This document shows positions 22,711 to 58,532 of a stretch of 64,000 nucleotides of DNA, piece by piece; position 1 is the stretch's first letter; each line of letters begins with the position of its first letter. This DNA is from a virus (Duplodnaviria > Heunggongvirae > Uroviricota > Caudoviricetes). Location of the stretch: IMG/VR virus record IMGVR_UViG_3300033075_000957, positions 64,001 to 128,000 of that record; one strand, 5' to 3'. The notes under the pieces were generated by a model, which saw only the letters and a program-made list of their open reading frames with translations, was not told the DNA's origin and searched no databases. The position numbers were made by a program, and so were the translations under genes.

Positions 22711-24399
22711 ATGAAAAAACGCGTCTTATTAGTCAATGAATTTCATCAACTCTCTACCGGTTACGCCACTTATTTTAAACATATTCTTCCCCATCTTTTT
22801 CAGTGTTCAGATATCGAAATTGCAGAATTAGCAGTCTTTTTATCTCCGGGACACCCTCAAAAAGATCAATGGTTAGCCACAACTCCGTGGAAAGTTTATT
22901 TGAACGAACCGCCAGCAGAAGCACCGCTGGAAGTACATCAGTCTTATAGATCAGATCCATTAAATCAATTGGGTAAATTTAGATTTGACGAAGTTTTGCT
23001 TGATTTTAAACCTGATTTTGTAATTACTATTCGCGATCCTTTCGTAGATGTATTTATCGATCATTCTGTTTATCGTCCCTATTTTAAGCATATTCACATG
23101 CCGACGATCGATAGTGAACCTTTAAAACAGGAATGGATTGATCAATATAAGAAAGCAGATGTTCTTTTAACATATTCGTATTTTGGTAAACGCGTATTAG
23201 AACAGCAATCTGGAAATATATTAAAAGTGTCTGCTGTCGCATCGCCCGGAGCGGAAACGGATAGTTTTAAACCCTTAGATAAAAAGGAATTACGCAAACG
23301 TTTTGGCATCGACGAAGACGCGTTTATCATCCAAACAGTTATGAGGAATCAGCCTCGTAAACTATTCCCGGAACTATTCAAAGCTTTTGCTGAATTTCTT
23401 TACAAATGCGAAGTTGAAGGAAATTATGATTTAGCAGCAAGATCATATTTACATATTCATACTACTTATCCAGATTTAGGTTGGAATTTATCCAGTGAAA
23501 TTCGTAATCATAAATTAGGCCATAAAATATTATGGACCTATATGTGTAGTAGTTGCAAGCGGCACGAATTAAATTTCTTTAGAGATTCAGCAACAGTATG
23601 TCATGCCTGTCGTGCATCTGCATATCATCTTCCGAATACAGCTATTGGACTAACTCGCGACCAGCTTTGCGAAATAATGAATATTCCAGACGTATATATA
23701 CAATACGCCAGTTGTGAAGGATGGGGATTACCAATTAGTGATGCCAAATCATGTGGTATACCTACTATAGTCACCGACTACTCGGCTTTATCTGAACAGG
23801 GCCATGCACCGGGTGGCATTCCAATCGAACCAGAATTATTTGGGCAAGAACCATATACCACAAGTACTGGTCAAACAAGAGTTGTTAAGATTAATCATAA
23901 GCAATTAATAGATAAACTCTATGAGCTAGCAACCACAGAAGATTTGTGTCAAGAGATTGGTAAAGCTGGACGTAAACTGATGGAAGACGTTTATGACTGG
24001 AAAAAGGTATCTAAAATTTGGGAATCAGTAATTCGCGAAACGCCAATTCTTGAACGAACCAATACATGGTTTGGTCCTCCGCGAATTATTTCTGGTCAAA
24101 TTGAAATGAATCCTAAATCGAATAATCAGGAATTCGTCAGAGATTGTTTTTCTAAGATTTTACAACAAAATCCTGATCAGCATGCTGCGGAAATCGCTAG
24201 ACTGGTTGGACTTCTTAATCAGGGTTTCGAACAGGGTCGCGATATGCACGGACGAGAATTTAAAGCTACATTTAATCGTCAAATTTTACTACAAAGATTT
24301 GTAGAGGAACTTAAAAAACGCAATCAAGCTGATGAAAAACGTTTAATTTCTGTTTTTGGCTATGTGCAAAACAACGGTATTCAAATAATTAGATTATGA
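22711..24399 (+). CDS. glycosyltransferase (GT-B, GT4-like) with CxxC..CxxC insertion
   Basis: STGYATY, VMRNQPRKLFPELF, EGWGLPISDAKSCGIP.IVTDYSA; CSSC and CHAC insert. Confidence 0.88.
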   Translation: MKKRVLLVNEFHQLSTGYATYFKHILPHLFQCSDIEIAELAVFLSPGHPQKDQWLATTPWKVYLNEPPAEAPLEVHQSYRSDPLNQLGKFRFDEVLLDFKPDFVITIRDPFVDVFIDHSVYRPYFKHIHMPTIDSEPLKQEWIDQYKKADVLLTYSYFGKRVLEQQSGNILKVSAVASPGAETDSFKPLDKKELRKRFGIDEDAFIIQTVMRNQPRKLFPELFKAFAEFLYKCEVEGNYDLAARSYLHIHTTYPDLGWNLSSEIRNHKLGHKILWTYMCSSCKRHELNFFRDSATVCHACRASAYHLPNTAIGLTRDQLCEIMNIPDVYIQYASCEGWGLPISDAKSCGIPTIVTDYSALSEQGHAPGGIPIEPELFGQEPYTTSTGQTRVVKINHKQLIDKLYELATTEDLCQEIGKAGRKLMEDVYDWKKVSKIWESVIRETPILERTNTWFGPPRIISGQIEMNPKSNNQEFVRDCFSKILQQNPDQHAAEIARLVGLLNQGFEQGRDMHGREFKATFNRQILLQRFVEELKKRNQADEKRLISVFGYVQNNGIQIIRL

Positions 24400-25514
24400 A
24401 GAAAATACTTTATATCGCTCCTATACATGACGGTACTGGCTATGCCCATATGGCCAATAATACCATTCTCATTCTTGACGCTGCCGGTCATGATGTAACG
24501 GTACGAAAGCAGAAGCTTACTGGACAAACTATTAGCCCGCCAAATAAAGTGATCGAAATGGAACGCAAAGATGTCCCACAGGATATCGATGTTGTTATTC
24601 AGCATACTCTTCCTCCTCATTTTATTCGCTATGAAGGCGTGAAAAATATCGGTTACTTCCATTGGGAAACTGATAATATCATGCCGTCAGGATGGCATCT
24701 TCCAATTAGCTTAATGGACGAGCTATGGGTTTCTTGGGAAGATAATGCAAATATGCTTCAAAGAATGATGGATCAGGGGGATTTGCCGTCTATACCGATA
24801 CGCGTAGTAACCGGTGCAGTTTCCCAAAATCGACCGGTTGACGGATTTGTCAATCCTATGCCTTTTAGTAAACTACCATATACCTTTTATCATATTGGAG
24901 ACTGTTCTGCTCGCAAAGGAACAGAGGCTTTGTTGACAGCTTTTTATCGCGAGTTTACCGCATCTGATAATGTACAGCTTATACTTAAAAGCTATGTAGA
25001 TGGCAAATCGACACAAGAATCTATTAATCATATTCGCGAAATGACTGAGAATATTAAAATGTCCTTGCGGGATAGAACAAATGGAAACTGGCCGACAGTA
25101 CATCTTATAGCACAGTATCTTACGGACGATGGAATCGCCGCTATTCATGAGACAGGCGACTGTTTTGTAACATTAGAGCGTGGAGCCGCATGGAACATTC
25201 CGGCGTTTGAAGCATGGCAAATGGGCAAGTCGGTAATAGCTCCTAATTATGGTGGACAGACCGCGTTTCTGCAAGAAAAAAATAATAATGGTATTCAATT
25301 ACTACATACCCAACCGGCTTTTGTTTACGGAATGAAAACGTGCGGCTATCCCGGTGTGTATACAAGTTATGAAAACTGGAGAGTGCCATTAATTGATAAC
25401 GCACAATATGCTATGCGTTTTGCATATAATACTGGTAAAAAAACCTATAATCGTAGCGATGAAATATCTCTGTTTTCATTAGAAAACATAGCCAAAGAAA
25501 TGGTAGAAATTTAA
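24396..25514 (+). CDS. glycosyltransferase (GT4-like)
   Basis: GTGYA, RKGTEALL.AF..EF, RGAAWNIPAFEAWQMGKSVIAPNYGG. Confidence 0.85.
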   Translation: MKKILYIAPIHDGTGYAHMANNTILILDAAGHDVTVRKQKLTGQTISPPNKVIEMERKDVPQDIDVVIQHTLPPHFIRYEGVKNIGYFHWETDNIMPSGWHLPISLMDELWVSWEDNANMLQRMMDQGDLPSIPIRVVTGAVSQNRPVDGFVNPMPFSKLPYTFYHIGDCSARKGTEALLTAFYREFTASDNVQLILKSYVDGKSTQESINHIREMTENIKMSLRDRTNGNWPTVHLIAQYLTDDGIAAIHETGDCFVTLERGAAWNIPAFEAWQMGKSVIAPNYGGQTAFLQEKNNNGIQLLHTQPAFVYGMKTCGYPGVYTSYENWRVPLIDNAQYAMRFAYNTGKKTYNRSDEISLFSLENIAKEMVEI

Positions 25515-25517
25515 ATC

Positions 25518-26507
25518 ATGCAAACCTTAACCACTTCTATCTTCAACAGGATTAAACCTTCAAAAAATTTGAAGGTTCTTACACTGGCAACCCACGAAGG
25601 ATATCAGTCCCTGTTTTCTAAAACGGGACACGAGCAGCATCTTATTGTAGCACCGGGACTGAAAAACTGGGATTTCCAGACCCGGCCCTTGCCACCAAAT
25701 ACTTATCTAATCAAAATCAATAAGATCGAAGAGTTTGTACCGACAGAACAGTATGATGTCGTACTGTCGCAAAATCGATTGCAGCACTATGGAATTCTCG
25801 CCCCTATAGCACAACGTTACAACATCCCATTTGTTCAAATAGATCACACTGAACCTCCGCCCGGCATTGTTGGAGAATATCTATCAAGATTGAATTCGAT
25901 GAGAGGGATGACAAATGTATTCATCACAGACTTTAACAAATCTTCATGGGAAGGCTTGCCAGATGATCCAGTGATTCCTCACGGAATCGATACTGACGTA
26001 TTTAAAGGCTGGGAAGGTAATGATAGCAGAGGGTTATCGGTTGTAAATTTCTTTCCACAACGGGATGTCTTCTGCGGGTGGGCTTTATGGCAACAGATTA
26101 GCAAAAACGTTCCACTCAAACTTGTCGGAGAAAATCCCGGAATATCCAAGTCTATCAATAAAGTAGAGGATTTAGTTAAGGAATATTGTTCAGCAAGATT
26201 TTTCCTGAATACTAGCCAGCTATCTCCTGTACCGTTATCTCTGATTGAAGCCATGGCCTGTGGTTGTCCAGTAGTTACCACTGCCAAACAAGAAATTCCA
26301 AATATCATTGTAAATGGCGTAAACGGGATTATTTCTAACGATCCGAACGAATTGATTCGTGGATGTACCCGTCTATTGGAAGACAAGGCGTATGCTAAAT
26401 TTTTAGGCGATAATGCTCGTCGAACTATACAAGAGCGATATAATATAGAACAATTCGTTAATAAATGGAACGAAGTATTGTATAGTGCTATTAGAAAATA
26501 TCGATAG
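25518..26507 (+). CDS. glycosyltransferase (GT4-like)
   Basis: VIPHGIDTDVF, FFLNTS..SPVPLSLIEAMACGCPVVT, ENARRTI.ERY-type ending. Confidence 0.88.
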   Translation: MQTLTTSIFNRIKPSKNLKVLTLATHEGYQSLFSKTGHEQHLIVAPGLKNWDFQTRPLPPNTYLIKINKIEEFVPTEQYDVVLSQNRLQHYGILAPIAQRYNIPFVQIDHTEPPPGIVGEYLSRLNSMRGMTNVFITDFNKSSWEGLPDDPVIPHGIDTDVFKGWEGNDSRGLSVVNFFPQRDVFCGWALWQQISKNVPLKLVGENPGISKSINKVEDLVKEYCSARFFLNTSQLSPVPLSLIEAMACGCPVVTTAKQEIPNIIVNGVNGIISNDPNELIRGCTRLLEDKAYAKFLGDNARRTIQERYNIEQFVNKWNEVLYSAIRKYR

Positions 26508-26532
26508 ACATACAAAGATGGAATGAGATCAA

Positions 26533-26754
26533 ATGGGTAATTTTTCAATAACTATAAACGGATCAGGAAGTTACGATACTCCAGAATTTAGACAGGCAAT
26601 CTATGGATTTCTGCAAAATCTTACTCGACTAAAGTTAAATATTTCGCAAGCCACCGCTATTTTTGGTGGTCATCAAGATTTCTTAAGGAATTTTGTATCG
26701 CGAGAAATAGTCGTAGACTATAATTCAACATCAATCGAACGGAGCGAATCTTGA
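26533..26754 (+). CDS. small hypothetical protein
   Basis: 73-aa ORF, TTGA coupling downstream. Confidence 0.45.
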   Translation: MGNFSITINGSGSYDTPEFRQAIYGFLQNLTRLKLNISQATAIFGGHQDFLRNFVSREIVVDYNSTSIERSES

Positions 26755-27155
26755 AGATATATTATCGTAGAAACGGTACCGAAGTACAAGGTGCTGTTAA
26801 CATCAAGCATTTCAATGATCTAAATCAATATAATGAAATTGAGTTTTTAGAACTTGACAATGTTCTGAATCAATTAAATTTAAATAATGTATTAATCGTG
26901 ATGCAGGCTGTTTATGCTAAAATGGCTACAAATGGAGAGATCTATATCCATGATTTAGATGCTCATGCGATTGCCAATAAAGTCAAGTTTAATCATTCCT
27001 CTTTAGAAGATTTTAATAACATTTTATTCCAACAAGGAACGGTTAGCTGTTTAGCTTTATATTGGATTAAAATTCAATTAGAACAAATTGGTTTTAAAAC
27101 CATTGAATGCGGCTATGGTTATGCAAATGATTTTTGGATTAGAATGCTCAAATGA
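26751..27155 (+). CDS. truncated/degenerate class I methyltransferase-like protein
   Basis: LDNVLNQL..V..KMATNGEIYIHDLD resembles the MTase C-terminal half; no GxGxG motif. Confidence 0.4.
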   Translation: MKIYYRRNGTEVQGAVNIKHFNDLNQYNEIEFLELDNVLNQLNLNNVLIVMQAVYAKMATNGEIYIHDLDAHAIANKVKFNHSSLEDFNNILFQQGTVSCLALYWIKIQLEQIGFKTIECGYGYANDFWIRMLK

Positions 27156-27865
27156 AAACTAACGTTGTTATTACAAACTACAATCAGGGGAAATTTGCCT
27201 ATTCAGCACTGGATAGTATATATAAACAAACGCATTTACCGACAAAAATTATTATTGTTGACGATTGTTCTACCGATAATTCTGTCGAGCTTATCAAACA
27301 AGCGATGGCAAAATTTAAGAATAAGATTGCAACAGAACTCATCGTCAGAGAAACGAACGGTAAACCCGCTGGTGCTCGTAACTCAGGAATTCGCAATCTC
27401 GAATCTGACTGCGAAGTTGTAGCCTTTCTAGACATTGATGATTTTTATGCTCCTGAAAAAATTCAGGCATCGATTAATGTACTTCGCAAGTATCCTCTAG
27501 TTGGATTAGTGTACACAGACTATAATATGTATGATGTACAAAAAAATAATTTTGTACGCGAATTTAAACATCCTTTCGATTTTAATATTCTAGCACAAGT
27601 TTGCATCGTATCAACCAATTCTATCATTCGTAGAAAAGTATTAGATAAAGTAGGTTTATTTGACGAAAAATATTATGGCGTAGAAGATTACCAAATGTGG
27701 TTACGTATTGCTTTAGAAAGCATGGTGCATCATATCGCCGAACCATTATTTACATATCGTATACACGGAGGTAATTTGAGCACAAATAATACTAAATTTA
27801 TGGAATCACAAATTCCACAATTAAAACAGGAACTATTTAGTGGAAACTATAAACCTCCCCGCTGA
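27152..27865 (+). CDS. glycosyltransferase family 2
   Basis: VVITNYNQG, IIVDDCSTD, NGKPAGARNSG, FLDIDD, EDYQMWLR. Confidence 0.92.
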   Translation: MKTNVVITNYNQGKFAYSALDSIYKQTHLPTKIIIVDDCSTDNSVELIKQAMAKFKNKIATELIVRETNGKPAGARNSGIRNLESDCEVVAFLDIDDFYAPEKIQASINVLRKYPLVGLVYTDYNMYDVQKNNFVREFKHPFDFNILAQVCIVSTNSIIRRKVLDKVGLFDEKYYGVEDYQMWLRIALESMVHHIAEPLFTYRIHGGNLSTNNTKFMESQIPQLKQELFSGNYKPPR

Positions 27866-28379
27866 AATATTAGAAAAATGTCATCAACCTATTAAACTAA
27901 GATATACTCCATATTTAAAAAACGGATTTGGAATTATTATTCAGCGTTTAACGCAGACTCAAATAACTTACTCATTATTTGAGCAAATAGCACGGTTCCA
28001 TAAACAAAACCCATTTGATGAAATTATTTTCTATACCGCTACAAATGAACTATCTATAATGAATGTGCCAACGTCGATTTTTCCAATTACGTCGCTAGGA
28101 GAACACATTGGGCCAGTAATTGCTACCTGTCCCCAAACTTGGTACGCAATGAACAATACTATTGGTGATATTGAGAAGTATTATTATGTTTTTGATCCTT
28201 TAATCTTTAGATTATTAAATCCTCAATTATTGAATCAAATCAGCGAAAGTAACACAAAATTTATACTACGATGTCAAGAACATCAGGAATTGGTGAAATT
28301 TATTCCACAGGATAAGATTATTAAAAATTATGTTCCTGATGCAGAATTAGAATTATTAAAGGATATTGTAAATGGCTAG
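27840..28379 (+). CDS. GT-B N-terminal-domain-like remnant
   Basis: VIATCPQTW..KYYYVFD pattern seen in GT4 acceptor domains; no donor-binding domain. Confidence 0.35.
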   Translation: METINLPAEILEKCHQPIKLRYTPYLKNGFGIIIQRLTQTQITYSLFEQIARFHKQNPFDEIIFYTATNELSIMNVPTSIFPITSLGEHIGPVIATCPQTWYAMNNTIGDIEKYYYVFDPLIFRLLNPQLLNQISESNTKFILRCQEHQELVKFIPQDKIIKNYVPDAELELLKDIVNG

Positions 28380-29130
28380 ACCAAAGAAAACAAACGGTAC
28401 GGAAGATCAGGCAGCAGTGGTTCAAGCGGAGACTGCTGAAACAGAAATCGTCCCCACCATGAATGATCCGGAATGGACGACGTATGTCCTTAGTCAACTA
28501 GATGAAAAGACAGAATTAGTTGAAAAGCGTCCAAAAGCCGCTGGTTTAAGAAGAATATTTACTCCACTTACCGGCTGGATTGTTAGAAAAAGTTATCCAA
28601 CAGTAATTCAGGCACCAGAGCCAAACAATGAACGCCGTGCAACCGTTATGTTCACTTTGGTTATTGACACTCCGCAAGGGCAAATGGAGTATTCCGATGC
28701 TTCCGATTGCTATTGGGCAAATACCACCAAGCCTTATAACTTACATCCAGTTGCTACCGCTGCAACAATGGCGGAAGGAAGAGTGCTGCGTAAATTAATG
28801 AAGCTTAATTGCGTAACTGTAGAAGAAACATTACAGCCAACCGAAGACGAGGCTGAAATTAATGAAGCAATAACTGACGCTTCTACCCCAATCGAAAAAC
28901 CGCAAGAGGTTGCAATTGAGCAAATTTGTGGAAAAGCCGGAATTGATATTCGTAAGATGTTAATGTGGCACAAGATGCCGGTTCCAGAAAACACTTCTGA
29001 TAAACCAACATCTAAGATGTCTAAGAGAGACGCCCAGCAAATTATTCAGATTTGTTTACAAGGATACCAGCGTGGTAAGGCTAACGGAGGAATCGATATT
29101 CCCGAAGAAATCAAAAGAGGTAATAAATAA
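28372..29130 (+). CDS. putative Rad52/Sak-like single-strand annealing protein
   Basis: GLRRI..RATVMFTL..ATAATMAEGRVLRKLM core followed by an acidic linker. Confidence 0.5.
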   Translation: MARPKKTNGTEDQAAVVQAETAETEIVPTMNDPEWTTYVLSQLDEKTELVEKRPKAAGLRRIFTPLTGWIVRKSYPTVIQAPEPNNERRATVMFTLVIDTPQGQMEYSDASDCYWANTTKPYNLHPVATAATMAEGRVLRKLMKLNCVTVEETLQPTEDEAEINEAITDASTPIEKPQEVAIEQICGKAGIDIRKMLMWHKMPVPENTSDKPTSKMSKRDAQQIIQICLQGYQRGKANGGIDIPEEIKRGNK

Positions 29131-29657
29131 TGGAATTTATCGCACATCGCGGTCTAATGGATGGACCAAATAAGCAATTTGAAAATTCTCCAGAGCAAAT
29201 TATAAATGCCTTAAATGAAGGTTTTACCGTTGAAATGGACATGTGGTCTGTTGACAACAGTGTATGGTTAGGACATAACGAACCTGTCTATTTCATCAAT
29301 AATAGAGATTTTTTAGAAGAAATAATTGAAAAGCGTTCAAACGTATTGATTCATGCTAAAAACGAAGAAGTATTAAATCAACTTAATAATTTAGATATAA
29401 ATATTTTTTGGCATGATTCCGATAAATATACAATTAGTAGCTGGAGTTGGCTCATTGGGAATCTTAACGTGCCGGTTTTAGATGCTATGTTGGTTAATCA
29501 ACCAGAAATGCATCCGTTTTTTGACGATATTTCTCATTTAAACGTTTTATTATGTGAGCAATATATTCGTAAATATGCTATGAATGCCGGTGGCTTTATG
29601 ACTAAATATCCACGCCTTTTTAAAGAAGCATGGGGAAGAATTAAGAATGACCAATAA
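29130..29657 (+). CDS. short glycerophosphodiester phosphodiesterase-like protein
   Basis: IAHRG..ENSP.QI..AL..GF.VEMDMW..LGH. Confidence 0.8.
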   Translation: MEFIAHRGLMDGPNKQFENSPEQIINALNEGFTVEMDMWSVDNSVWLGHNEPVYFINNRDFLEEIIEKRSNVLIHAKNEEVLNQLNNLDINIFWHDSDKYTISSWSWLIGNLNVPVLDAMLVNQPEMHPFFDDISHLNVLLCEQYIRKYAMNAGGFMTKYPRLFKEAWGRIKNDQ

Positions 29658-30279
29658 ATCTATTCAAGCGATCGCTTTTGATCTTGACGGGGTTCTCGTT
29701 GATTCATGTGATTGGCATCGTGATGCTTTGAATATTGCATTGGTAGAAGCAGGATATGCTGAAATCGATGCGATTGCCCATAAAAATATCTATAATGGAT
29801 TACCAACGCGAACGAAATTAGAGAAACTTGGGATTCCTCAAGAGTTTCGTAAAACTATCGAAGATCGCAAACAATTTCATACCAATACTTTGATACAAAA
29901 ATATTGCCATCATGACGAAGAGTTGGTAAAAATTATGTGGTTATTAAAACTGGACGGATATCAACTTGCGTGTGTAACAAATTGCACACCAAATGGTGCT
30001 CGATTGTTGTTGCGTAAGATTGGGGTGCTACCGTTCCTTGATTTGTTAGTAGCTAATGATTTTGGCGGAGAACCGAAGCCGTCTCCTGATCCGTATGTAT
30101 TCTGTTCTAAGAAACTTAATTTATTATCCAATTCCGTTTTAGTTGTCGAAGACAGTTATAAAGGAATTGAAGCAGCAAAACGTGCCGGTTGTAGATTGTT
30201 AGAAGTACCAGCAAGACACGGATTAACGTACCAAAAAATTAAAGAATGCATTTATAATGATCAACAGTTTCTATTTTAA
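29647..30279 (+). CDS. HAD-family phosphatase
   Basis: FDLDGVLVD, VTN, KPSPDPY, VVEDSYKGIEAA. Confidence 0.9.
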   Translation: MTNKSIQAIAFDLDGVLVDSCDWHRDALNIALVEAGYAEIDAIAHKNIYNGLPTRTKLEKLGIPQEFRKTIEDRKQFHTNTLIQKYCHHDEELVKIMWLLKLDGYQLACVTNCTPNGARLLLRKIGVLPFLDLLVANDFGGEPKPSPDPYVFCSKKLNLLSNSVLVVEDSYKGIEAAKRAGCRLLEVPARHGLTYQKIKECIYNDQQFLF

Positions 30280-30293
30280 CATAGAGAGCAAAT

Positions 30294-30431
30294 ATGGTTC
30301 GTCCAATTATCAGACAAATAAGTCTTGCTCGCCGCCGCGAGCAACAATTTCAGCAACAAAAGATTGCAGAACAAGAAAGCAAAGATAAAGAAACCAAAAC
30401 AAGTGATGCCAGAAAAGATTCAAAACAGTAA
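30294..30431 (+). CDS. small unannotated ORF (MVRPIIRQISLARRREQQ..., 45 aa)
   Basis: ATG 30294 to TAA 30431 fills the HAD-WavE gap; not in the ORF track. Confidence 0.4.
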   Translation: MVRPIIRQISLARRREQQFQQQKIAEQESKDKETKTSDARKDSKQ

Positions 30432-31188
30432 AGAACTCACATTTGTCATACAAGGAATTGTTAATGAGCATACGGTTAAAACAATCGATTCAATAAACAG
30501 ATTCTTTCCTGAATCGCTCGTTATTTTAAGTGTTCATAGAAGCGATAGCCCTCGTATTAGATGGGATTCGAACAAGTTTACTTATCAGGAAATTCCTGAT
30601 CCCGGCGAATCTAAAAACAACTTACGTAGACAAATCGCAACCTCTAGAGCGGGACTCAAATTAGTCAACACTAAATTTGCGTGCAAAATACGCTCCGATC
30701 TAGAATTTGTACACGGCGGGCTAATTAATGCTTATAATCAATACCTCCCTTCTGTATCGTCATCAATGGCGTTTATGCAATCAGTAGGAATACTCGATGT
30801 ATTTACATATCATCCGCATGTTCTACCTCTATTTCTTTCTGATTTTATTGCCATCGGACTAACGTTAGATGTACAGAAAATATTTAACTGCCCTCTTCCA
30901 TCGGGGGATATGGACCATATTTATTCAGAAAATGCTCCCGATAAATTAATGGGTCGATTAATCGGTCCAGAACAATATTTAGCATGGCACGGATCTTCAC
31001 GCATGTTTAAAAATGCAAAAACCTTTGCCAATGATATAGAAAAAGGACAGAGTTACGATGCTATTAAAGAAAATTACATTGTCCTAGATATGGGTCCGCA
31101 GGCCGGTTTAATTTGGCACAAAAATCCGTACGTAGAGCAAATGGCTCAAAGAGATTGTCTTCACAATAAAGAATGGAGAAATTTGTGA
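30406..31188 (+). CDS. WavE-like polysaccharide synthesis protein (paralog 1)
   Basis: TFVIQG...NLRRQIATSRAGL..VNTKFACKIRSD..FLSDF..G; ATG 30406 preferred to TTG 30325. Confidence 0.7.
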   Translation: MPEKIQNSKELTFVIQGIVNEHTVKTIDSINRFFPESLVILSVHRSDSPRIRWDSNKFTYQEIPDPGESKNNLRRQIATSRAGLKLVNTKFACKIRSDLEFVHGGLINAYNQYLPSVSSSMAFMQSVGILDVFTYHPHVLPLFLSDFIAIGLTLDVQKIFNCPLPSGDMDHIYSENAPDKLMGRLIGPEQYLAWHGSSRMFKNAKTFANDIEKGQSYDAIKENYIVLDMGPQAGLIWHKNPYVEQMAQRDCLHNKEWRNL

Positions 31189-31721
31189 CGTTTCCTTTCA
31201 AAAGAATAAATTTTTTCGCTGCACCCGGAGCGTCAAAATCAACGACCGCCGCAAAAACTTTCTCCGCTCTGAAAGACGCTGGATATTGTCCAGAACTAGT
31301 ACAGGAAGTCTGCAAAGAATGGGCGTGGGAACAAAAGAAATGGCACGATTTTGATCAATTTTATATTTTTGGCCAACAGATTCGGCGAGAACTTATACCG
31401 TTAAAAGGCGGAGCAGATTGTATAGTTAGCGATTCGCCTTTGCTGCTACAATATTATTATGCTAACAAATATAAGGTACCTGCCGCTGACGCACTGGCCG
31501 ATATTGCTTGTGCTTTTGAAGCACAATATCCTTCTCTTAATTTCTTTGTGCGTCGTAGTAATCGCAAATACGAAACACGAGGACGTTACGAGACATTAGA
31601 GCAGGTCCAAATAATGGACAAAGAAATAAGAAATATAATGCCAAAAATTAATAGTTTTGAAATAGACGCGAGCGATGTGGATAGTGTTATGAAAATTATT
31701 CTACCGATAGTTGGAAAATAA
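31173..31721 (+). CDS. NadR/Ttd14-like P-loop (AAA_28) protein
   Basis: INFFAAPGASKST, ELVQEVCKE, IVSDSPLL, GRYETLEQ; P-loop GK changed to SK. Confidence 0.7.
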   Translation: MEKFVTFPFKRINFFAAPGASKSTTAAKTFSALKDAGYCPELVQEVCKEWAWEQKKWHDFDQFYIFGQQIRRELIPLKGGADCIVSDSPLLLQYYYANKYKVPAADALADIACAFEAQYPSLNFFVRRSNRKYETRGRYETLEQVQIMDKEIRNIMPKINSFEIDASDVDSVMKIILPIVGK

Positions 31722-31962
31722 AATGCCCAAAATTAAAGCAAAATACTTAGGTTGTTTTACAAACTTGGCGGTAATACAATATGGAAAAACAATTTATTTA
31801 ACTGATAATATGTACATAGAATGGGACGAAAATTCTTTTTATTTAGATGACGTGCCTAAAGGCACTACTTTTCCTATTTCTGCACTTAGCGAATGGCAAT
31901 GGTCTGGCTCGATAAACGACCTTAAGAAACTTATGAAACTGGTAGGTTTATCCTCATGTTAA
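31711..31962 (+). CDS. hypothetical protein
   Basis: 83-aa ORF tiling the operon. Confidence 0.45.
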   Translation: MENKMPKIKAKYLGCFTNLAVIQYGKTIYLTDNMYIEWDENSFYLDDVPKGTTFPISALSEWQWSGSINDLKKLMKLVGLSSC

Positions 31963-32723
31963 ACATTTTAATCCCAATGGCTGGCAAAGGTAAACGCTTT
32001 GCCGAAGCCGGTTATGCAGAACTAAAACCCTTCATTCAAATTGACGGTAAACCGATGGTAGAGCATGTCATTGCCAATCTTACTGGATGGATGTATTTTG
32101 GCGAGCATGTTATGCCGCATCAAGTTATTTTAGTCGTTGATCCGGATATTGAGGAACGGTACGCAAAGGAACTAGCCTCATTAAGCGATAAATACAATGT
32201 TCGCGTAGTTTCCACCAATGGCGAAGTGCAACATGGACAAGCATGGTCGTGTCGTGTTGCCGAATCACTTATTGATAATGAAACACCGTTGTTGATTGCT
32301 AATTCGGATCAAATTTTAATGGATTATTCTGAAAACTGGCTTAATGAATGGCTGGCTTTTATTCACGCAAATCCGTGCGACGGATCGGTTGCTCTATTCT
32401 GGAACAATCATCCAAAATGGTCATATGCAAAAGTGGCCAATGGTCTTATCGTAGAAACCGCTGAAAAACAAGTTATTAGCGAACACGCAACCGTTGGGCT
32501 CTATTATTTCAATAAAGGTCATGATTTTATAACATATAGCGATCAAATGATCGTCGAACAGGAAACTGTAAATGGCGAATACTATGTTTGCCCTGTATAT
32601 AATCGTATGATCCAAGAAGGGGCACAGATTAAACCTTATTGGTTCAATCAAGTATGGGGTATTGGGACTCCTGTTGATTTAAACAAGTTCGCAAAACAAT
32701 TTAATCTTGAGGTTAAAAAATAA
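31956..32723 (+). CDS. BcbE-like sugar nucleotidyltransferase
   Basis: LIPMAGKGKRFAEAGY..KPFI..GKPMVEHVI, IANSDQ, WSYA, EK..IS..ATVGLYYF, NGEYYVCPVYN, GIGTPVDL. Confidence 0.85.
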   Translation: MLNILIPMAGKGKRFAEAGYAELKPFIQIDGKPMVEHVIANLTGWMYFGEHVMPHQVILVVDPDIEERYAKELASLSDKYNVRVVSTNGEVQHGQAWSCRVAESLIDNETPLLIANSDQILMDYSENWLNEWLAFIHANPCDGSVALFWNNHPKWSYAKVANGLIVETAEKQVISEHATVGLYYFNKGHDFITYSDQMIVEQETVNGEYYVCPVYNRMIQEGAQIKPYWFNQVWGIGTPVDLNKFAKQFNLEVKK

Positions 32724-32931
32724 AATGGCGTGCGGTGATTTTCTCTGTAAACATGGAAATTGGTTAGCGAAATGTACAATTTGCAATTTACATCATGATT
32801 ATTACTATGATCCTATCTCATTAGCTTTTCATATAATATATGAATCTTACGTTTATGTACCCGATCCGCTAAAATCAAAAGATATATTCGAAAAAATGTA
32901 TGATGATGCCTACCGAAAACACAAAAATTGA
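32707..32931 (+). CDS. small hypothetical protein
   Basis: 74-aa ORF tiling the operon. Confidence 0.4.
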   Translation: MRLKNKMACGDFLCKHGNWLAKCTICNLHHDYYYDPISLAFHIIYESYVYVPDPLKSKDIFEKMYDDAYRKHKN

Positions 32932-33394
32932 TTCCCGTCCAGAAACTTATAAACATATTCAGACTGTTCAGCAAAATATGAATCGTGCGATTCAGAATTT
33001 AATGAAACGATCTGAGGTACATGATCAATCAAAACTTAATGCTCCAGAACTAGAAATATTTGATGAATATACTTCAAAACTTCGTGGATGCACTTATGGT
33101 TCTAAAGAATATGAAGATTATCGCGAAAAGATGAAATCTGCTCTTGATCATCATTATGCAGTTAATGATCATCATCCAGAACACAATATTAATGGTGTTC
33201 AAGGAATGAGTTTAATGTCTCTTCAAGAAATGATTTGTGATTGGTACGCTGCTACTCAACGTCATGCTGACGGCGATCTGATGAAGAGTATCGAAATAAA
33301 CCAAAAACGTTTTGGTTATAGCGATGAATTAAAACAAATTTTACTTAATACAGTAAAAGAACTCGGTTTCTTTCATACAAATGTTATACGATAA
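32900..33394 (+). CDS. DUF5662-like HD-type putative hydrolase (paralog 2)
   Basis: HIQTV...HDQSK...HHYAVNDHHPEH...EMICDW.AA..RH. Confidence 0.75.
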   Translation: MMMPTENTKIDSRPETYKHIQTVQQNMNRAIQNLMKRSEVHDQSKLNAPELEIFDEYTSKLRGCTYGSKEYEDYREKMKSALDHHYAVNDHHPEHNINGVQGMSLMSLQEMICDWYAATQRHADGDLMKSIEINQKRFGYSDELKQILLNTVKELGFFHTNVIR

Positions 33395-34199
33395 TTTATC
33401 TTTTGTAATTCAAGGAATACTCGATCGTCGTACTACTGCTTTGACAGCGAGTATTGTTCAGCATTTTCCCGGTGCTGAAATTATTCAATCAACTAATATT
33501 GAAAATGCTCAAGCACAAGGAATTTGTGATAAATTAATCATCACTGATAATCCTCCAGAATTATCCGGAGAAAATAATAAACACTTGAATAGACTAATTA
33601 CTACTTCTTTTAAAGGAATAGAAGCGGCTAGTAATCCATTAGTAATTAAATTACGAAGTGATTTGTTTTTTACAAATGATCATTTATATCATACTTGGTA
33701 TAAATATTTAGAGATATATGAGCGGCAATTTGGACAAGAATTTAGAATTTTTAATATTCCTGTAGGTATTGTAAATTATTACACTATAGACCCTAGGTCA
33801 AGTGGTAGTCTAGCTTTACCATATCATCCCTCAGACTGGCTTATGATAGGGCAGAAGAAAGACATCCTAGAATATTATCGTATACCATTTAAAGACGCGG
33901 AAAAGGTTTACGATACAGGAGGCAGGCACACGAGCAGGATCGAGCAATACCCCGCTATAACCAATCTACAGGCTCATGGCTTTTCTGTACCGTTCTCTCA
34001 TGAATTTGACGCTTCGGAAATAAATATTCAAAATACACTTAGATTCTTCGTCAATAATTTCATCGTCTTTAATCTTGATCATGCCGGTATCTTTAGCCAA
34101 AAATATCGAATGCCTACTACCGCTCCGATTCTTTTCGACTGGGATAAGTGGCAATATTTCTCTAATTTTTTCTATCAGCAGCGATTAGATGGACTATAA
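33381..34199 (+). CDS. WavE-like polysaccharide synthesis protein (paralog 2)
   Basis: SFVIQG...NRLITTSFKGI..ASNPLVIKLRSD...HPSDWL.IG...EQY. Confidence 0.75.
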   Translation: MLYDNLSFVIQGILDRRTTALTASIVQHFPGAEIIQSTNIENAQAQGICDKLIITDNPPELSGENNKHLNRLITTSFKGIEAASNPLVIKLRSDLFFTNDHLYHTWYKYLEIYERQFGQEFRIFNIPVGIVNYYTIDPRSSGSLALPYHPSDWLMIGQKKDILEYYRIPFKDAEKVYDTGGRHTSRIEQYPAITNLQAHGFSVPFSHEFDASEINIQNTLRFFVNNFIVFNLDHAGIFSQKYRMPTTAPILFDWDKWQYFSNFFYQQRLDGL

Positions 34200-34206
34200 T
34201 TAATGT

Positions 34207-34545
34207 ATGCTAAAAAGCATCGTGCAAAAGTTTAAAGACAAAAACAAGGGATGGATAATAGGAAAATTTGCGGGTGCTTTGCTACAAGAAAACTTCGAAA
34301 TAGGCATTAAAGAATATAAATGCGGCGATACAAATCCTCGGCATTTACACAAACTGGCTAAGGAAATAAATATTATTATTTCTGGCAAAGCAAAATTTAT
34401 CTTTGACGACAAAACCGTTGCCGTTTCAGACGGTGATATAGTCGTTATTGAGGAAAACGAGCCTTCTGCTTTTGAAGCAGAAGCGGATACAATACTTTTG
34501 GTAATTAAAACTGTAAGTGATATAAATGACAAATACACTTCCTAA
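34207..34545 (+). CDS. cupin-fold protein
   Basis: KGWIIGKF..EIGIKEYKCGD..PRHLHKLAKEINIIISG; H-x-H..E cupin motif. Confidence 0.8.
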   Translation: MLKSIVQKFKDKNKGWIIGKFAGALLQENFEIGIKEYKCGDTNPRHLHKLAKEINIIISGKAKFIFDDKTVAVSDGDIVVIEENEPSAFEAEADTILLVIKTVSDINDKYTS

Positions 34546-35251
34546 ACGTGGAATTCTTTACATGGTATGGGGCGGTCCCGAACACCGTATCCAGCTTAAT
34601 GAATCGGTCGATTCTGTTAGAAATCAATATCCCGACATGCCTATTTGTATTTGCGATTTAGATCAGCAGTTTCCAAATACTAAACCGCGATTAGGTATAA
34701 AGTCATGGATGTATGATATATCACCTTTTGAAGAAACCCTATTTCTAGATACAGATACTAAAGTTTTAGGTGATTTATCTTTCGGTTTCGACAAAGCAAA
34801 ACAGTACGGGATGGCGGTCGCTATAGACCATGCTTGTTACGCCCGAAGATGGCATGAAGTACGGAAATTAGTACCTACAGAAATACATCAGGATATTGTT
34901 GAGTATAATACTGGCGTAATATTTTTCAATAAGCAGGTAAAAGTTAAAGCCGTTTTTGATCAATGGAAATCGTGGGAACATATATCATGGAATGACCAGC
35001 CCGGTTTCGCGGTAGCTATCGAAAAAGCAAATTTCTGTCCTTTCGTCCTTCCAGATCATATATGGAACTATCGCGTCTATAATGCAGATAGGTTATTCGG
35101 ACCAATAAAAATATGGCATACGGAAAAACCAAATCATTTGACAGAAACAATAAAACAGGCTATTACACAAGAACACAACTGGAGAATGTATCAGGTACCA
35201 GAATTACAGGCACAGCATCCAGAAGATAGAGAAACAATACTTAAATGTTAG
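34526..35251 (+). CDS. GT-A fold (GT8-like) glycosyltransferase
   Basis: TLFLDTDT (DxD), EYNTGVIFF, WNDQPGF, IWNYR. Confidence 0.75.
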   Translation: MTNTLPKRGILYMVWGGPEHRIQLNESVDSVRNQYPDMPICICDLDQQFPNTKPRLGIKSWMYDISPFEETLFLDTDTKVLGDLSFGFDKAKQYGMAVAIDHACYARRWHEVRKLVPTEIHQDIVEYNTGVIFFNKQVKVKAVFDQWKSWEHISWNDQPGFAVAIEKANFCPFVLPDHIWNYRVYNADRLFGPIKIWHTEKPNHLTETIKQAITQEHNWRMYQVPELQAQHPEDRETILKC

Positions 35252-57456: not shown

Positions 57457-58532
57457 TAACCAACTCCCGGATTTTTAATCTGTGCGGCCTTCATGCGAAG
57501 TAATTGTTGAGCATCTGGTAACATACCCGCTTCAATCTGACCCCTTTCGGCAATCACTTTATTGTTTTTAACTATATTCTTTTTAACTGTGGTATTGTTC
57601 ATGGCGTATACACGCTGTGCATCTTCAACTGTTTCGGCCATAATACCTATATCGGTTCCATCCGTATCTTTCAATATTCTTGGGCCATGATCATTTTTAT
57701 CATCTCTGTTCGATTGCGAAGCGAGCCAAGCGTCAAAAGCGTCATCGTCGTCAAATATTTCTGCGGATGGACAATTTGTAGATTCTTTTGCGGCATCGTA
57801 AATCAGCGACCATGTTATTAATGCACGCTGTAAATCTGTTATTTCTATAGAAGGCTTGCCAAATAAGTTACCGGTCTTTTGAGCAGTAAGCCAAACGCTT
57901 CTCCATGGCTCACTTCTTGCAAGTTTACGAATATCTTTTTCTTCAATATTTTTTGGATAAAAGCCGTGATCAAGTATTTCTTGCACTTCGCGATCATAAA
58001 CATCTAAATATTCTTCAAAAGATACATTACTAAAATATTGCTTCATATTAATATTGTACGTTAATAAGTAAATCAAATACTTGTGTTTAATATGATTGGC
58101 TATTGCGTCTGCCGAATTATGAAGCATACTATTCTTAATTCTTTGAATTTCAGAATATTTCTTTTCAAGATTTTCTTTTCGTCTAATTAAAGCCGATTTA
58201 CTAATTGATCTAAATTTACATTTAGCAATTTCTTCGCTTACAGAACGAATCTCTATTGGTATTTGTTTTTCTAATGTTGTATATTCTGTAGTCCATAAGC
58301 CATATTTTTGCATTTTCTCCATTACTTCTTCTGATGTATAAAGACCGTCGTCAAGAAGCGTTTCCATTTCTTGATCGTACATAACATCGGCCAATTGCTT
58401 TTCAAAAATTGAGGGGTCTTTAAGAATCACCTGAGTTTTATTTGAAAGTGCAATCACGGCCTGTCCTGTTACTATTCTCGCGAATAGCCTATCAAGGTCT
58501 AGCTTTTCCTCTGAAATAAGCGGCAAGTGCAA
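57456..58532 (-). CDS. hypothetical protein, possible tail assembly chaperone
   Basis: 358 aa; acidic FDDDDAFDAWL segment; located between tail tube and tape measure genes. Confidence 0.5.
   Translation of the reverse strand: MHLPLISEEKLDLDRLFARIVTGQAVIALSNKTQVILKDPSIFEKQLADVMYDQEMETLLDDGLYTSEEVMEKMQKYGLWTTEYTTLEKQIPIEIRSVSEEIAKCKFRSISKSALIRRKENLEKKYSEIQRIKNSMLHNSADAIANHIKHKYLIYLLTYNINMKQYFSNVSFEEYLDVYDREVQEILDHGFYPKNIEEKDIRKLARSEPWRSVWLTAQKTGNLFGKPSIEITDLQRALITWSLIYDAAKESTNCPSAEIFDDDDAFDAWLASQSNRDDKNDHGPRILKDTDGTDIGIMAETVEDAQRVYAMNNTTVKKNIVKNNKVIAERGQIEAGMLPDAQQLLRMKAAQIKNPGVG

What the first reader, a model, noticed from the sequence alone, without database searches (positions are those of the whole stretch)
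22711..35251. A ~12.5-kb phage-encoded glycan-assembly pathway, a candidate virion- or host-surface glycosylation system
Seen: at least five intact glycosyltransferases of three types (3 GT4, 1 GT2, 1 GT8-like), two WavE-like proteins, a BcbE-like nucleotidyltransferase, HAD, GDPD-like and cupin genes, all co-oriented. Established: DNA-hypermodifying phage GTs usually come with base-modifying enzymes such as hydroxymethylases, and none is visible here. GT sets of this size are typical of capsule/LPS loci and of giant-virus virion glycosylation. Inference: the phage builds a multi-sugar, possibly methylated glycan. The target could be its Ser/Thr-rich tail proteins (41.7-51.2 kb) or the host envelope (superinfection exclusion). 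No Wzx/Wzy/ABC exporter or membrane GT was recognised, which favours cytoplasmic glycosylation of virion proteins.
Basis: partly seen in the sequence, partly recalled or inferred. Interest (0 to 1): 0.8.

Follow-up and report, generated by a model that had tools for sequence, protein, structure and literature searches.

The report
Conserved phage sugar-chain assembly locus
A 156-kb uncultured phage carries a real block of soluble sugar-transferring enzymes whose first half is conserved behind the DNA polymerase genes of at least 119 related uncultured phage contigs, so sugar-chain building looks like a core trait of this phage group, but what gets coated (most likely the virus particle) is still unproven.

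Summary
Window 22711-35251 is one co-oriented, tightly packed run of sugar genes: three GT4-type GT-B enzymes (one degenerate), a GT2, a GT8-like GT-A, two WavE proteins, a HAD, an NDP-sugar pyrophosphorylase and a cupin. The "GDPD-like" label failed, and about six ORFs are not recognisably sugar genes.

The locus has two parts.
- **Core (22711-27865):** GT562-GT372-GT4-u134-GT2. It follows the split DnaE in all 80 loci fetched, out of 119 IMG/VR relatives. GT562 is more conserved than DnaE and carries inteins in some lineages.
- **Accessory module (29130-35251):** inserted between a conserved phage gene and SSB. It is shared only with a 170-kb groundwater phage. Other relatives carry different sugar genes there: Fcl, FkbM methyltransferases, GT8, GT32 and GT47-like.

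No cluster protein has a membrane helix, and the genome encodes no polytopic membrane protein. A ThyA homolog is absent from six near-complete genomes; no C5-methylase or tested dioxygenase family was found in this phage, and no TET/JBP in the six (no positive control). Gmd sits inside the packaging/head operon in all five genomes checked.

Best reading (about 0.45): cytoplasmic glycosylation of a phage-encoded acceptor, probably virion proteins. Rivals are host-envelope remodelling (0.25) and DNA glycosylation (0.12). Earlier notes of this scan described other sugar modules in the same genome. The acceptor needs experiment.

The parts
22711..24399 (+). GT562: GT4-type GT-B glycosyltransferase with a Cys4 insertion (C279, C282, C297, C300) and an extra C-terminal domain of about 110 aa. 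It is the anchor gene of the conserved core.
   Evidence: Pfam Glycos_transf_1 at 35 bits. AF2 model with pLDDT 92. Best PDB match is 3oy2, chlorovirus B736L (E 8.8e-19, TMt 0.80), followed by GlgM, PimB', BshA and MshA. E336 and E344 form an EX7E motif and are conserved. The gene is present directly after DnaE_C in all 80 loci fetched. At least 415 protein clusters match at E<=1e-20.
24396..25514 (+). GT372: divergent GT-B glycosyltransferase-like protein, the second core gene.
   Evidence: PHROG 2170 at E 1e-7. Pfam Glyco_trans_1_4 scores only 18 bits. It follows GT562 in 73 of 80 loci. The family consensus keeps EX7E, but this phage has Ala at the first Glu.
25518..26507 (+). GT4_329: canonical GT4 glycosyltransferase.
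   Evidence: Pfam Glyco_trans_1_4 at 58 bits and Glycos_transf_1 at 55 bits. Present in 59 of 80 loci.
26533..26754 (+). u73: small ORF of unknown function.
   Evidence: No family match. It was not found in the relatives.
26751..27155 (+). u134: member of a small family conserved inside the GT core. It is weakly SAM-methyltransferase-like and may be degenerate.
   Evidence: hhalign gives 96.8% probability to a family present in 67 of the 80 loci. The profile hits the methyltransferase 3dli at E 0.0095, and some members keep an LGCG motif.
27152..27865 (+). GT2_237: soluble GT-A (GT2) glycosyltransferase.
   Evidence: Pfam Glycos_transf_2 at 88 bits. Best NCBIfam match is TuaG-like at 76 bits, far below its cut-off. 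Present in 47 of 80 loci.
27840..29130 (+). u179 and u252: conserved phage genes with no sugar-related signature. In many relatives they mark the normal end of the rightward operon.
   Evidence: u252 occurs in 19 loci and belongs to a virus-only ESM cluster. u179 is weakly related to family c10. In L006, L007 and L011 these genes are followed directly by SSB.
29130..29657 (+). 175-aa protein (phrog_34507), the first gene of the accessory insertion. The 'GDPD-like' label is not supported.
   Evidence: PHROG 34507 at E 2e-16. No GDPD match at E<=10. No PDB relative.
29647..30279 (+). HAD_2 hydrolase or phosphomutase of the beta-phosphoglucomutase/phosphatase family.
   Evidence: Pfam HAD_2 at 89 bits. 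NCBIfam PGMB-YQAB subfamily at 69 bits. It is 44% identical to the L004 homolog. Many homologs of the neighbouring NTase are fused to HAD_2.
30325..31188 (+). WavE-like protein 1, a putative transferase.
   Evidence: Pfam WavE at 62 bits. It is 27% identical to WavE-2.
31173..31721 (+). AAA_28 P-loop protein, a candidate kinase.
   Evidence: Pfam AAA_28 at 28.5 bits against a cut-off of 27. No PDB or NCBIfam match.
31956..32723 (+). NDP-sugar pyrophosphorylase (nucleotidyltransferase).
   Evidence: Pfam NTP_transf_3 and NTP_transferase. PDB 4evw at E 3e-18 over the full length. 2742 homologs, many of them NTase-HAD_2 fusions. It is 38% identical to the L004 homolog.
32900..33394 (+). DUF5662 protein of unknown role.
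   Evidence: Pfam DUF5662 at 124 bits.
33381..34199 (+). WavE-like protein 2, a putative transferase.
   Evidence: Pfam WavE at 69 bits. 967 homologs among 1.84 billion representatives, many of them 2-3x tandem WavE fusions. In bacterial loci it is linked to a kinase and an NTase(-HAD).
34207..34545 (+). Cupin_2 protein, a candidate sugar isomerase or epimerase.
   Evidence: Pfam Cupin_2 at 39 bits. It is 36% identical to the L004 homolog.
34526..35251 (+). GT8/Nucleotid_trans-like GT-A transferase, the last gene before SSB.
   Evidence: ESM Atlas feature score 0.96-0.97 and TM 0.75-0.79 to GT8/Nucleotid_trans clusters. No Pfam hit.
58492..60086 (-). Two class I methyltransferase genes inside the tail operon. 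They may belong to the same glycan system, but the link is unproven.
   Evidence: Methyltransf_24 at 48 bits. Methyltransf_23 at 26 bits, below its cut-off. The related phage L004 keeps a Methyltransf_24/O-methyltransferase inside its sugar locus, but that protein is not an ortholog.

Best explanation
The interval is a two-part, fully cytoplasmic glycan-assembly locus.

**Part 1 (22711-27865)** is a conserved core of soluble transferases: GT562, GT372, a GT4, a small methyltransferase-like protein and a GT2. It is transcribed as the continuation of the replication operon. I infer that it builds the invariant inner part of an oligosaccharide on an acceptor the phage itself encodes, most probably virion structural proteins.

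**Part 2 (29130-35251)** is a lineage-specific insertion. I infer that it makes an activated sugar: a P-loop kinase and/or HAD mutase-phosphatase, then an NDP-sugar pyrophosphorylase, with a cupin as a possible isomerase. Two WavE proteins and a GT8-like enzyme would then add lineage-specific outer residues.

A GDP-mannose 4,6-dehydratase in the packaging/head operon, and possibly the methyltransferases in the tail operon, would feed 6-deoxyhexose and methyl decorations at the time of particle assembly.

**Shown:** enzyme families, solubility, synteny and conservation.
**Inferred:** donor chemistry, order of action and the acceptor.
For: - **Conserved core.** The order DnaE_N, g19477, DnaE_C, GT562 holds in all 80 loci fetched from 119 IMG/VR relatives. 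GT372 follows in 73, the GT4 in 59 and the GT2 in 47. GT562 identity (32-46%) is at or above that of DnaE (26-33% in most loci). Such conservation across very divergent phages fits a conserved, phage-borne acceptor better than variable host glycans.
- **Importance of GT562.** Some homologs carry inteins at two different conserved sites, one of them the EX7E motif. This fits a highly conserved gene and probably an indispensable one.
- **Variable outer part.** Downstream genes differ between lineages, as in O-antigen loci. Relatives carry NTase3, Glyco_trans_1_2, Fcl, FkbM methyltransferase, GT8, GT32, GT47-like or DUF6492. This phage and L004 carry HAD, NTase, WavE and cupin.
- **Cytoplasmic action.** There are no membrane helices in the cluster and no polytopic membrane protein in the genome.
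- **Link to morphogenesis.** Gmd (325-416 bits in four genomes; split at 246 + 125 bits within one ORF in G005) lies in the same string in all 5 genomes checked: TerS-like, Gmd, then packaging genes, then the MCP.
- **Structural neighbours.** The closest solved structure to GT562 is a chlorovirus GT.
- **Cultured distant relatives.** S-CBS4 has GT, GalT and a SAM methyltransferase between the portal and prohead-protease/capsid genes. TJE1 has an NTase-kinase-epimerase-MT-GT cassette just upstream of TerS, TerL and portal.
- **Donor module.** NTase-HAD_2 Rosetta-stone fusions tie the HAD and NTase together. Bacterial WavE loci carry a kinase, an NTase(-HAD) and WavE.
- **Precedent.** Virion glycosylation of mycobacteriophage capsid and tail tube proteins is described in PMC12619734, citing Freeman 2023.
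Against: - No glycoprotein evidence exists.
- The virion proteins show no dense Ser/Thr acceptor tails like those of glycosylated mycobacteriophage proteins. The major capsid protein candidate has 12% S+T.
- The locus is co-transcribed with replication genes, not late genes. No late-type motif is enriched.
- In S-EIVl the distant GT homolog follows a primase.
- The homology to the cultured-phage GTs is remote (22-26% identity), so their context is weak evidence.
- GT4 and GT2 folds do not reveal the acceptor class.
Confidence: 0.45

Rival explanations
1. Host-envelope remodelling. The soluble phage GTs act at the inner face of the membrane on host lipid-linked intermediates (LPS core, O-antigen, capsule or teichoic-type polymers). 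The host's own flippases and exporters then display the altered glycan, giving superinfection exclusion or stopping progeny from sticking to cell debris.
For: - The enzyme families are those of LPS and capsule loci: GT4, GT2 (TuaG/EpsE-like), WavE and GT8.
- WavE homologs lie in bacterial polysaccharide-type loci.
- Early or middle co-transcription with replication genes would suit a change to the cell surface.
Against: - The core is one of the most conserved gene sets across phages that share only about 30% identity in replication proteins and come from marine, lake and groundwater samples. Host surface acceptors would be expected to differ.
- No membrane-anchored or lipid-carrier-initiating enzyme is encoded.
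- Gmd is fixed inside the packaging/head operon.
- No integrase or lysogeny module was seen in the window. Lysogeny is where serotype conversion usually pays off.
Confidence: 0.25
2. DNA hypermodification. The GT chain builds a mono- to oligosaccharide on a modified base of the phage genome, as in T-even phages, RB69 and DLP3 poly-arabinosyl-5hoC, or MT/TET-dependent 5hmC glycans.
For: - The core sits directly behind the replicative polymerase in all 80 fetched loci.
- Inteins, which are typical of DNA-metabolism genes, occur in GT562 homologs.
- GT562 has a Zn-ribbon-like Cys4 insertion.
- Phage DNA can carry di- and trisaccharides made by GTs that resemble LPS and teichoic-acid enzymes (bioRxiv 10.1101/2023.12.21.572611; PMC13326640).
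- Gmd next to the packaging genes would also fit modification just before packaging.
Against: - No ThyA homolog in this genome or in five relatives that are 94-100% complete, while the controls ring.
- No C5 DNA methyltransferase and no 2OG-FeII_Oxy_3 match.
- No Tet_JBP match, although that search had no positive control.
- The divergent ThyX-like gene of this phage is absent from the five relatives that keep the GT core.
- T4 alpha- and beta-GT are not among the 50 best listed structural matches.
Confidence: 0.12
3. A soluble or lipid product rather than a macromolecular coat. The enzymes would make a cytoplasmic oligosaccharide, glycolipid or glycosylated small molecule, for example a compatible solute or a storage or protective glycan, that reprogrammes host metabolism during infection.
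For: - The nearest structural neighbours after the chlorovirus GT are small-molecule or soluble-glucan GT4 enzymes: GlgM, BshA, MshA and sucrose-phosphate synthase.
- All the enzymes are soluble.
Against: - Five to nine different transferases plus methyltransferases, with lineage-specific diversification, are not expected for a metabolite.
- The conserved placement of Gmd in the head operon also argues against it.
Confidence: 0.06

Closest known systems
Virion glycosylation systems of mycobacteriophages (Che8, Corndog, Myrna; Freeman et al. 2023, as summarised in PMC12619734)
   Same: Tailed phages encode several soluble GTs, some with methyltransferases, that act in the cytoplasm on phage proteins without any exporter.
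   Different: - Those systems have few GTs, are accessory, and target Ser/Thr-rich C-termini of capsid and tail tube proteins. No such tracts are seen here.
- Here the core is fixed behind DnaE in all 80 fetched loci of a large clade and comes with sugar-donor genes.
- No sequence relationship was tested because the paper is not held.
Giant-virus glycan machineries (chlorovirus capsid glycosylation; Megavirinae fibril glycan clusters); structure 3oy2 of chlorovirus NY-2A B736L
   Same: - The virus encodes cytoplasmic GT sets plus nucleotide-sugar enzymes, with clade-specific variation.
- B736L is the best solved structural match of GT562 (E 8.8e-19, TMt 0.80).
   Different: - Those are eukaryotic viruses, and sequence identity is only 16%.
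- The function of B736L is itself unproven.
- GT562 has an extra Cys4 insertion and a C-terminal domain.
'LPS gene clusters' of T4-like cyanophages, and the other sugar operons of this same genome (earlier notes e1-1696952, e1-1696953)
   Same: Aquatic phage operons of GTs, NTases and epimerases whose target is unknown.
   Different: - Those clusters are variable accessory islands.
- The core here is syntenic in all 80 fetched loci and more conserved than the polymerase.
Phage DNA-glycosylation gene clusters (T4 alpha/beta-GT; RB69/DLP3 arabinosyl-5hoC, PMC13326640; MT-TET-GT clusters, bioRxiv 10.1101/2023.12.21.572611)
   Same: GT strings, sometimes with sugar-nucleotide genes, close to replication genes. 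The products can be di- or trisaccharides.
   Different: The defining base-hydroxylating step (a ThyA homolog, or a methyltransferase plus 5mYOX) was not found in this phage; its five near-complete relatives lack ThyA and gave no Tet_JBP hit.
Core glycosyltransferase orthogroups of 'moraphages', large aquatic phages (PMC12619734)
   Same: Four putative GT orthogroups belong to the core genome of an uncultured aquatic phage lineage.
   Different: - Moraphages are jumbo phages of up to 307 kb with contractile tails.
- Whether the GTs are homologous to those here could not be tested because no sequences were at hand.
- That paper does not describe synteny with DnaE.
Bacterial WavE-containing polysaccharide loci (Pfam PF07507)
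   Same: Both WavE copies pass the family threshold. The bacterial loci combine WavE with a kinase, an NTase(-HAD), an epimerase and GT4/GT2 genes.
   Different: - The bacterial homologs are only 24-31% identical.
- The biochemical activity of WavE is unknown, and I found no solved structure or paper on it.

Membership tests
CAZy GT4-type retaining GT-B glycosyltransferase (GT562) | Two-Rossmann-domain GT-B fold | tested here: met
   AF2 model with pLDDT 92. Foldseek top hits are all GT4 GT-B enzymes with TMt 0.7-0.8.
CAZy GT4-type retaining GT-B glycosyltransferase (GT562) | EX7E motif in the C-terminal domain and a Glycos_transf_1 score above the gathering threshold | tested here: met
   E336 and E344 are conserved across 64 homologs. 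Pfam score is 35.3 bits against a cut-off of 26.4.
WavE family (PF07507) | Score above the Pfam gathering threshold over most of the model | tested here: met
   62.1 and 68.7 bits against a cut-off of 27, covering model positions 2-273 of 305.
GDPD (glycerophosphodiester phosphodiesterase, PF03009), for 29130-29657 | A detectable match to the family profile | tested here: not met
   No match anywhere in the genome at E<=10, while 11 control genomes ring. Pfam and NCBIfam scans of the protein itself are also empty.
Phage DNA-glycosylation pathway | An enzyme that creates the hydroxylated base: a ThyA-homolog hydroxymethylase or 5hoC synthase, or a C5-methyltransferase plus TET/JBP dioxygenase | tested here: not met
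   No PF00303 in this genome or in five relatives that are 94-100% complete. No PF00145 or PF13640. No PF12851, but that search had no positive control.
Phage DNA-glycosylation pathway | Glycosylated nucleosides in virion DNA | not testable with these tools
   This needs LC-MS of virion DNA.
Bacterial Wzx/Wzy- or ABC-dependent polysaccharide locus, or Gtr-type seroconversion module | A membrane-embedded initiating transferase, flippase, polymerase or exporter (or GtrA/B/C) | tested here: not met
   A hydropathy scan of all ORFs of at least 50 aa finds at most four hydrophobic segments in any ORF, and none in the cluster.
Mycobacteriophage-type virion glycosylation | Ser/Thr-rich C-terminal acceptor extensions on the capsid or tail tube subunits | tested here: not met
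   The MCP candidate (340 aa) has 12% S+T. No virion protein has a 40-aa window above 42% S+T.
Mycobacteriophage-type virion glycosylation | Glycan mass on purified virion proteins | not testable with these tools
   This needs a cultured clade member and glycoproteomics.
GT8 / Nucleotid_trans GT-A (34526-35251) | Profile match above the family threshold | tested here: inconclusive
   No Pfam hit. Only language-model and predicted-structure similarity supports it (0.96-0.97; TM 0.75-0.79).

The most novel reading that the evidence does not exclude
Building a glycan coat on the particle is a core, clade-defining trait of a widespread group of uncultured aquatic phages of about 140-180 kb. A conserved, intein-bearing GT set wired to the replication operon would make the inner glycan. 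Interchangeable outer modules would diversify it the way O-antigen loci do. This would be a 'phage glycocalyx' comparable to that of giant viruses.
Probability: 0.3. Interest if true: 0.8.

Novelty: new variant of a known kind. Interest (0 to 1): 0.62.

Why it matters
Phage glycosyltransferases are usually treated as accessory 'morons'. Here a GT set is as conserved as the replication proteins in all 80 loci fetched from at least 119 related uncultured phage contigs. It also recruits inteins and is diversified at its distal end.

If the acceptor is the virion, glycan coats would be a general feature of an abundant aquatic phage lineage. That would bear on adsorption, particle stability, grazing, and recognition of particles by defence systems or immune systems. 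If the acceptor turns out to be DNA, it would imply a new chemistry that needs no known hydroxylated base.

Either way, the GT562/GT372 pair is a compact, well-modelled and testable target.

Tried and rejected
- **Close relatives in cultured phages.** Megablast of the whole interval and tblastn of a structural protein found nothing in INPHARED. tblastn of GT562 gave only remote hits at 22-26% identity.
- **Single-protein scans of IMG/VR.** GT562 and DnaE_C each found nothing. A scan seeded with a two-sequence alignment succeeded.
- **Single-sequence AF2 of GT562.** The model was useless, with pLDDT 37.
- **WavE function.**
  - Single-sequence and profile searches of the PDB found no relative.
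  - Two literature searches were swamped by the ordinary word 'wave'.
It is not enriched in the window: 19 found against 19.05 expected. It could not be used to time the cluster.
- **ThyX-like gene as a possible base-modifying partner.** Rejected because it is absent from the five near-complete relatives.
- **GT372 as a non-catalytic, GtfB-like partner of GT562.** Considered and left open. The family consensus keeps EX7E, but this phage's copy has lost the first Glu.
- **Orthology between this phage and L004.** Rejected for the tail-operon Methyltransf_24 against the L004 sugar-locus methyltransferase, and for DUF5662 against the L004 HD-like gene.
- **Identity of the 715-aa packaging-operon protein.** Not confirmed as TerL: no PDB hit and no Terminase_6N match.
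- **Host inference from ribosome-binding sites.** Inconclusive: 32% of genes have an SD-like core against an 8.5% background.
  - Freeman 2023 and the Cell Reports version of Pyle 2024 are not held.

Full report
**Context.** The window is bases 64001-128000 of a single 156,166-bp IMG/VR virus record that CheckV rates 99% complete. It has no close relative among 50,697 deposited phage genomes. Most of its structural proteins match no PHROG or Pfam family; three give only weak PHROG tail-fibre or virion-protein hits.

**Observation.** Between 22711 and 35251 every ORF lies on the + strand. Neighbours overlap or are separated by 17-107 nt.
  - 22711-24399: Glycos_transf_1.
  - 25518-26507: GT4.
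  - 27152-27865: GT2.
  - 29647-30279: HAD_2.
  - 30325-31188 and 33381-34199: WavE. The two are 27% identical paralogs.
  - 31173-31721: AAA_28.
  - 31956-32723: nucleotidyltransferase, matching PDB 4evw at E 3e-18.
  - 32900-33394: DUF5662.
  - 34207-34545: cupin_2.
- 24396-25514 is a degenerate GT-B. It hits PHROG 2170 but scores only 18 bits in Pfam.
- 34526-35251 is GT8/Nucleotid_trans-like only by ESM-Atlas similarity.
- 'GDPD-like' for 29130-29657 is not supported. The GDPD profile finds nothing in the genome even at E<=10.
- u73, u179, u252, u83 and u74 have no sugar-related signature. u252 belongs to a virus-only family.
- None of the cluster proteins has a hydrophobic 19-mer above KD 1.6. 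No ORF in the whole genome has more than four such segments. There is therefore no Wzx, Wzy, ABC exporter, WecA/WbaP-type initiator or Gtr protein.

**The locus has two parts.** Two distant relatives came from WavE-seeded scans. An alignment of GT562 with its homolog from one of them (L003) then seeded an IMG/VR scan. That scan returned 119 relatives, of which 80 loci were fetched.
- In all 80 loci GT562 directly follows DnaE_C. In 79 of them the full order DnaE_N, g19477, DnaE_C, GT562 is seen. GT372 follows in 73, the GT4 in 59 and the GT2 in 47.
- Many of the remaining loci are simply cut by contig ends.
- GT562 identity to the window protein (32-46%) is at or above that of the polymerase halves (26-33% in most loci).
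- A small protein family that includes window u134 lies inside the core in 67 loci. It is weakly methyltransferase-like.
- The typical relative continues with a Cys4 protein (c3), an NTP_transf_3 enzyme and a Glyco_trans_1_2 enzyme. After that comes one of two endings:
  - a GDP-fucose-synthase-like gene plus a variable tail of FkbM methyltransferase, GT8, GT32, GT47-like or DUF6492 genes; or
  - a short non-sugar block (c10, HTH, u252, c12) before the strand switch.
- The window phage and its nearest relatives (L006, L007, L011) lack c3, NTase3 and GT1_2. In those three relatives the order runs GT2, (u179), u252, SSB.
- The window's second half (29130-35251) is therefore an insertion between u252 and SSB.
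- Its HAD, NTase, WavE and cupin genes are shared, at 36-44% identity and in the same position next to SSB and the convergent late operon, only with a 170-kb contig from Hainich groundwater (L004).
- L004 additionally keeps the following in that same locus:
  - a Gmd-like gene and a second epimerase;
  - a GT10-like gene;
  - a Methyltransf_24/O-methyltransferase;
  - a Glyco_trans_1_2 gene;
  - an FkbM methyltransferase.
- In the window phage, the counterparts of several of these genes are scattered elsewhere in the genome (earlier notes e1-1696953 and e1-5596050).

**GT562.**
- With a 64-sequence alignment AF2 gives a confident model (pLDDT 92, pTM 0.89).
- It is a GT4-type GT-B with a conserved EX7E motif (E336/E344), a conserved Cys4 insertion and an extra C-terminal domain.
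- The best solved match is the putative GT B736L of chlorovirus NY-2A (3oy2; E 8.8e-19; TMt 0.80). GlgM, PimB', BshA and MshA follow. T4 DNA glucosyltransferases are not among the 50 best listed matches.
- The family has at least 415 90%-identity clusters at E<=1e-20, on contigs of up to 183 kb from Tara, ENA, JGI and Logan data. None comes from a named cultured phage.
- Four homologs carry inteins at two different sites. One site follows the DIRDxWM motif and the other lies immediately before the EX7E Glu. This fits a very conserved gene and probably an indispensable one.

**Donor module.**
- The NTase has 2742 homologs, and many of them are fused to a HAD_2 domain. One such fusion lies on a 153,711-bp contig, the same length as the contig behind locus L045.
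- This Rosetta-stone link argues that HAD210 and NTase255 act in one pathway, as a sugar-phosphate mutase or phosphatase followed by nucleotidyl transfer.
- The nearest bacterial WavE genes come from a marine Bacteroidetes single-cell genome and from Alphaproteobacteria MAGs. Their loci contain an APH/choline-kinase-like kinase, an NTase(-HAD), an epimerase or GT4+GT2, and then WavE.
- The combination of kinase, NTase, HAD and WavE therefore recurs. In the phage, the AAA_28 P-loop protein may take the kinase role; this is an inference.
- WavE activity itself is unknown. Many database homologs are 2-3x tandem WavE fusions of 600-1300 aa.

**Which acceptor?**

*DNA.*
- A ThyA homolog (hydroxymethylase or 5hoC synthase) is absent from this genome and from five relatives that are 94-100% complete. 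The control genomes ring.
- No C5 DNA methyltransferase and no 2OG-FeII_Oxy_3 match were found.
- Tet_JBP was not found either, but that search lacked a positive control.
- The phage's divergent ThyX-like gene is missing from those five relatives.
- The known routes to a glycosylatable base (PMC13326640; bioRxiv 10.1101/2023.12.21.572611) are therefore not visible.

*Host envelope.*
- The enzyme families fit, and soluble GTs could use host exporters.
- However, a core more conserved than the polymerase, across phages from marine, lake and groundwater samples, is hard to reconcile with host-specific acceptors. No lipid-carrier-initiating enzyme is encoded.

*Virion.*
- Gmd (325-416 bits in four genomes; split at 246 + 125 bits within one ORF in G005) is present in this genome and in four relatives, always in the same string: an HTH TerS-like gene, Gmd, a small ORF, then proteins of 159, 715, 623, 515, 162 and 340 aa.
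- The 340-aa protein is the major capsid protein candidate (PDB 6wkk, E 6.6e-5; 48-53% identity between phages).
- A GDP-6-deoxyhexose precursor gene fixed inside the packaging/head operon links the sugar system to particle assembly.
- Two methyltransferase genes lie in the tail operon.
- Context in distant cultured relatives of GT562 is mixed:
  - S-CBS4 places GT, GalT and a SAM methyltransferase between the portal and the prohead protease/capsid genes.
  - TJE1 has an NTase-kinase-epimerase-MT-GT cassette just upstream of TerS, TerL and portal.
  - In S-EIVl the GT follows a primase.
- Against the virion reading, the virion proteins carry no dense Ser/Thr tracts, and the core is co-transcribed with replication genes.

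**Verdict.**
- The new result is that it consists of a clade-wide conserved GT core plus an exchangeable outer module.
- The acceptor remains unproven. My estimates are:
  - virion proteins, about 0.45;
  - host envelope, about 0.25;
  - DNA, about 0.12;
  - a soluble product, about 0.06.
- Phage and giant-virus glycan clusters are known. Core GT orthogroups were recently noted in another aquatic phage lineage (PMC12619734).
- I therefore class this as a new variant of a known kind, with interest of about 0.6.
- Earlier notes of this scan had already described other sugar modules of the same genome. None had described the conserved DnaE-linked core.

Noticed in passing
Homologs of window 22711-24399 (P0274, P0275, P0349, P0362): GT562 homologs of 868-956 aa carry inteins (Hint, LAGLIDADG and Intein_splicing domains) at two different sites. 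One follows the DIRDxWM motif and the other lies immediately before the catalytic EX7E Glu. I know of no earlier report of inteins in a glycosyltransferase (from general knowledge, not searched).
   Followed up: partly
Genome 136360-137370 (window coordinates 72360-73370, beyond the window); L095-L098: A GDP-mannose 4,6-dehydratase gene sits between a TerS-like HTH gene and the packaging/portal/capsid genes. The position is the same in this phage and in four near-complete relatives.
   Followed up: yes
window 16574-22217 and L006-L085: The split DnaE (N part, a conserved 222-aa gene, then the C part) is conserved in essentially all 80 related loci. The split is therefore ancestral to the clade and not a recent disruption.
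   Followed up: partly
Genome 41054-41902 (L001:1444-2292): The ThyX-like protein matches the Thy1 profile in permuted order: profile positions 58-185 come before positions 13-57 in the same ORF. It scores only 60 bits and is absent from five relatives.
   Followed up: partly
L008:14258-15145 and 56 other loci (family c3): A protein of about 264 aa with four invariant Cys in its N-terminal part (C41, C44, C57 and C91 of the first sequence) lies inside the GT core of 57 relatives. It has no Pfam match and is missing from the window phage.
   Followed up: partly
Database homologs of window 33381-34199 (for example P0006, P0017, P0038): Many WavE-family proteins are tandem fusions of two or three WavE domains (600-1300 aa). 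This suggests polymerase-like or multi-step transferases.
   Followed up: no
L004:1-11500: The 170-kb Hainich groundwater phage gathers Gmd-like, GT10-like, O-methyltransferase, FkbM, HAD, NTase and WavE genes in one locus next to SSB. In the window phage the Gmd and GT10-like homologs and same-family methyltransferases lie in separate places elsewhere in the genome.
   Followed up: partly
Genome 63398-64150 (window 1-150 is its 3' end): This is the only ORF in the genome with four predicted hydrophobic segments (250 aa, pI 9.8). It lies just after the other sugar operon noted earlier. Its identity was not determined.
   Followed up: no
L092 (Synechococcus phage S-CBS4, 9916-12282): A glycosyltransferase, a galactosyltransferase and a SAM methyltransferase lie between the portal and the prohead protease/major head protein of a cultured cyanosiphovirus. 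This makes it a tractable model for testing head glycosylation.
   Followed up: no
window, both strands: The proposed late-promoter motif GTGTATW occurs 19 times against 19.05 expected. Several copies do lie just upstream of late genes on the minus strand (36617, 46497, 56328, 61260).
   Followed up: partly
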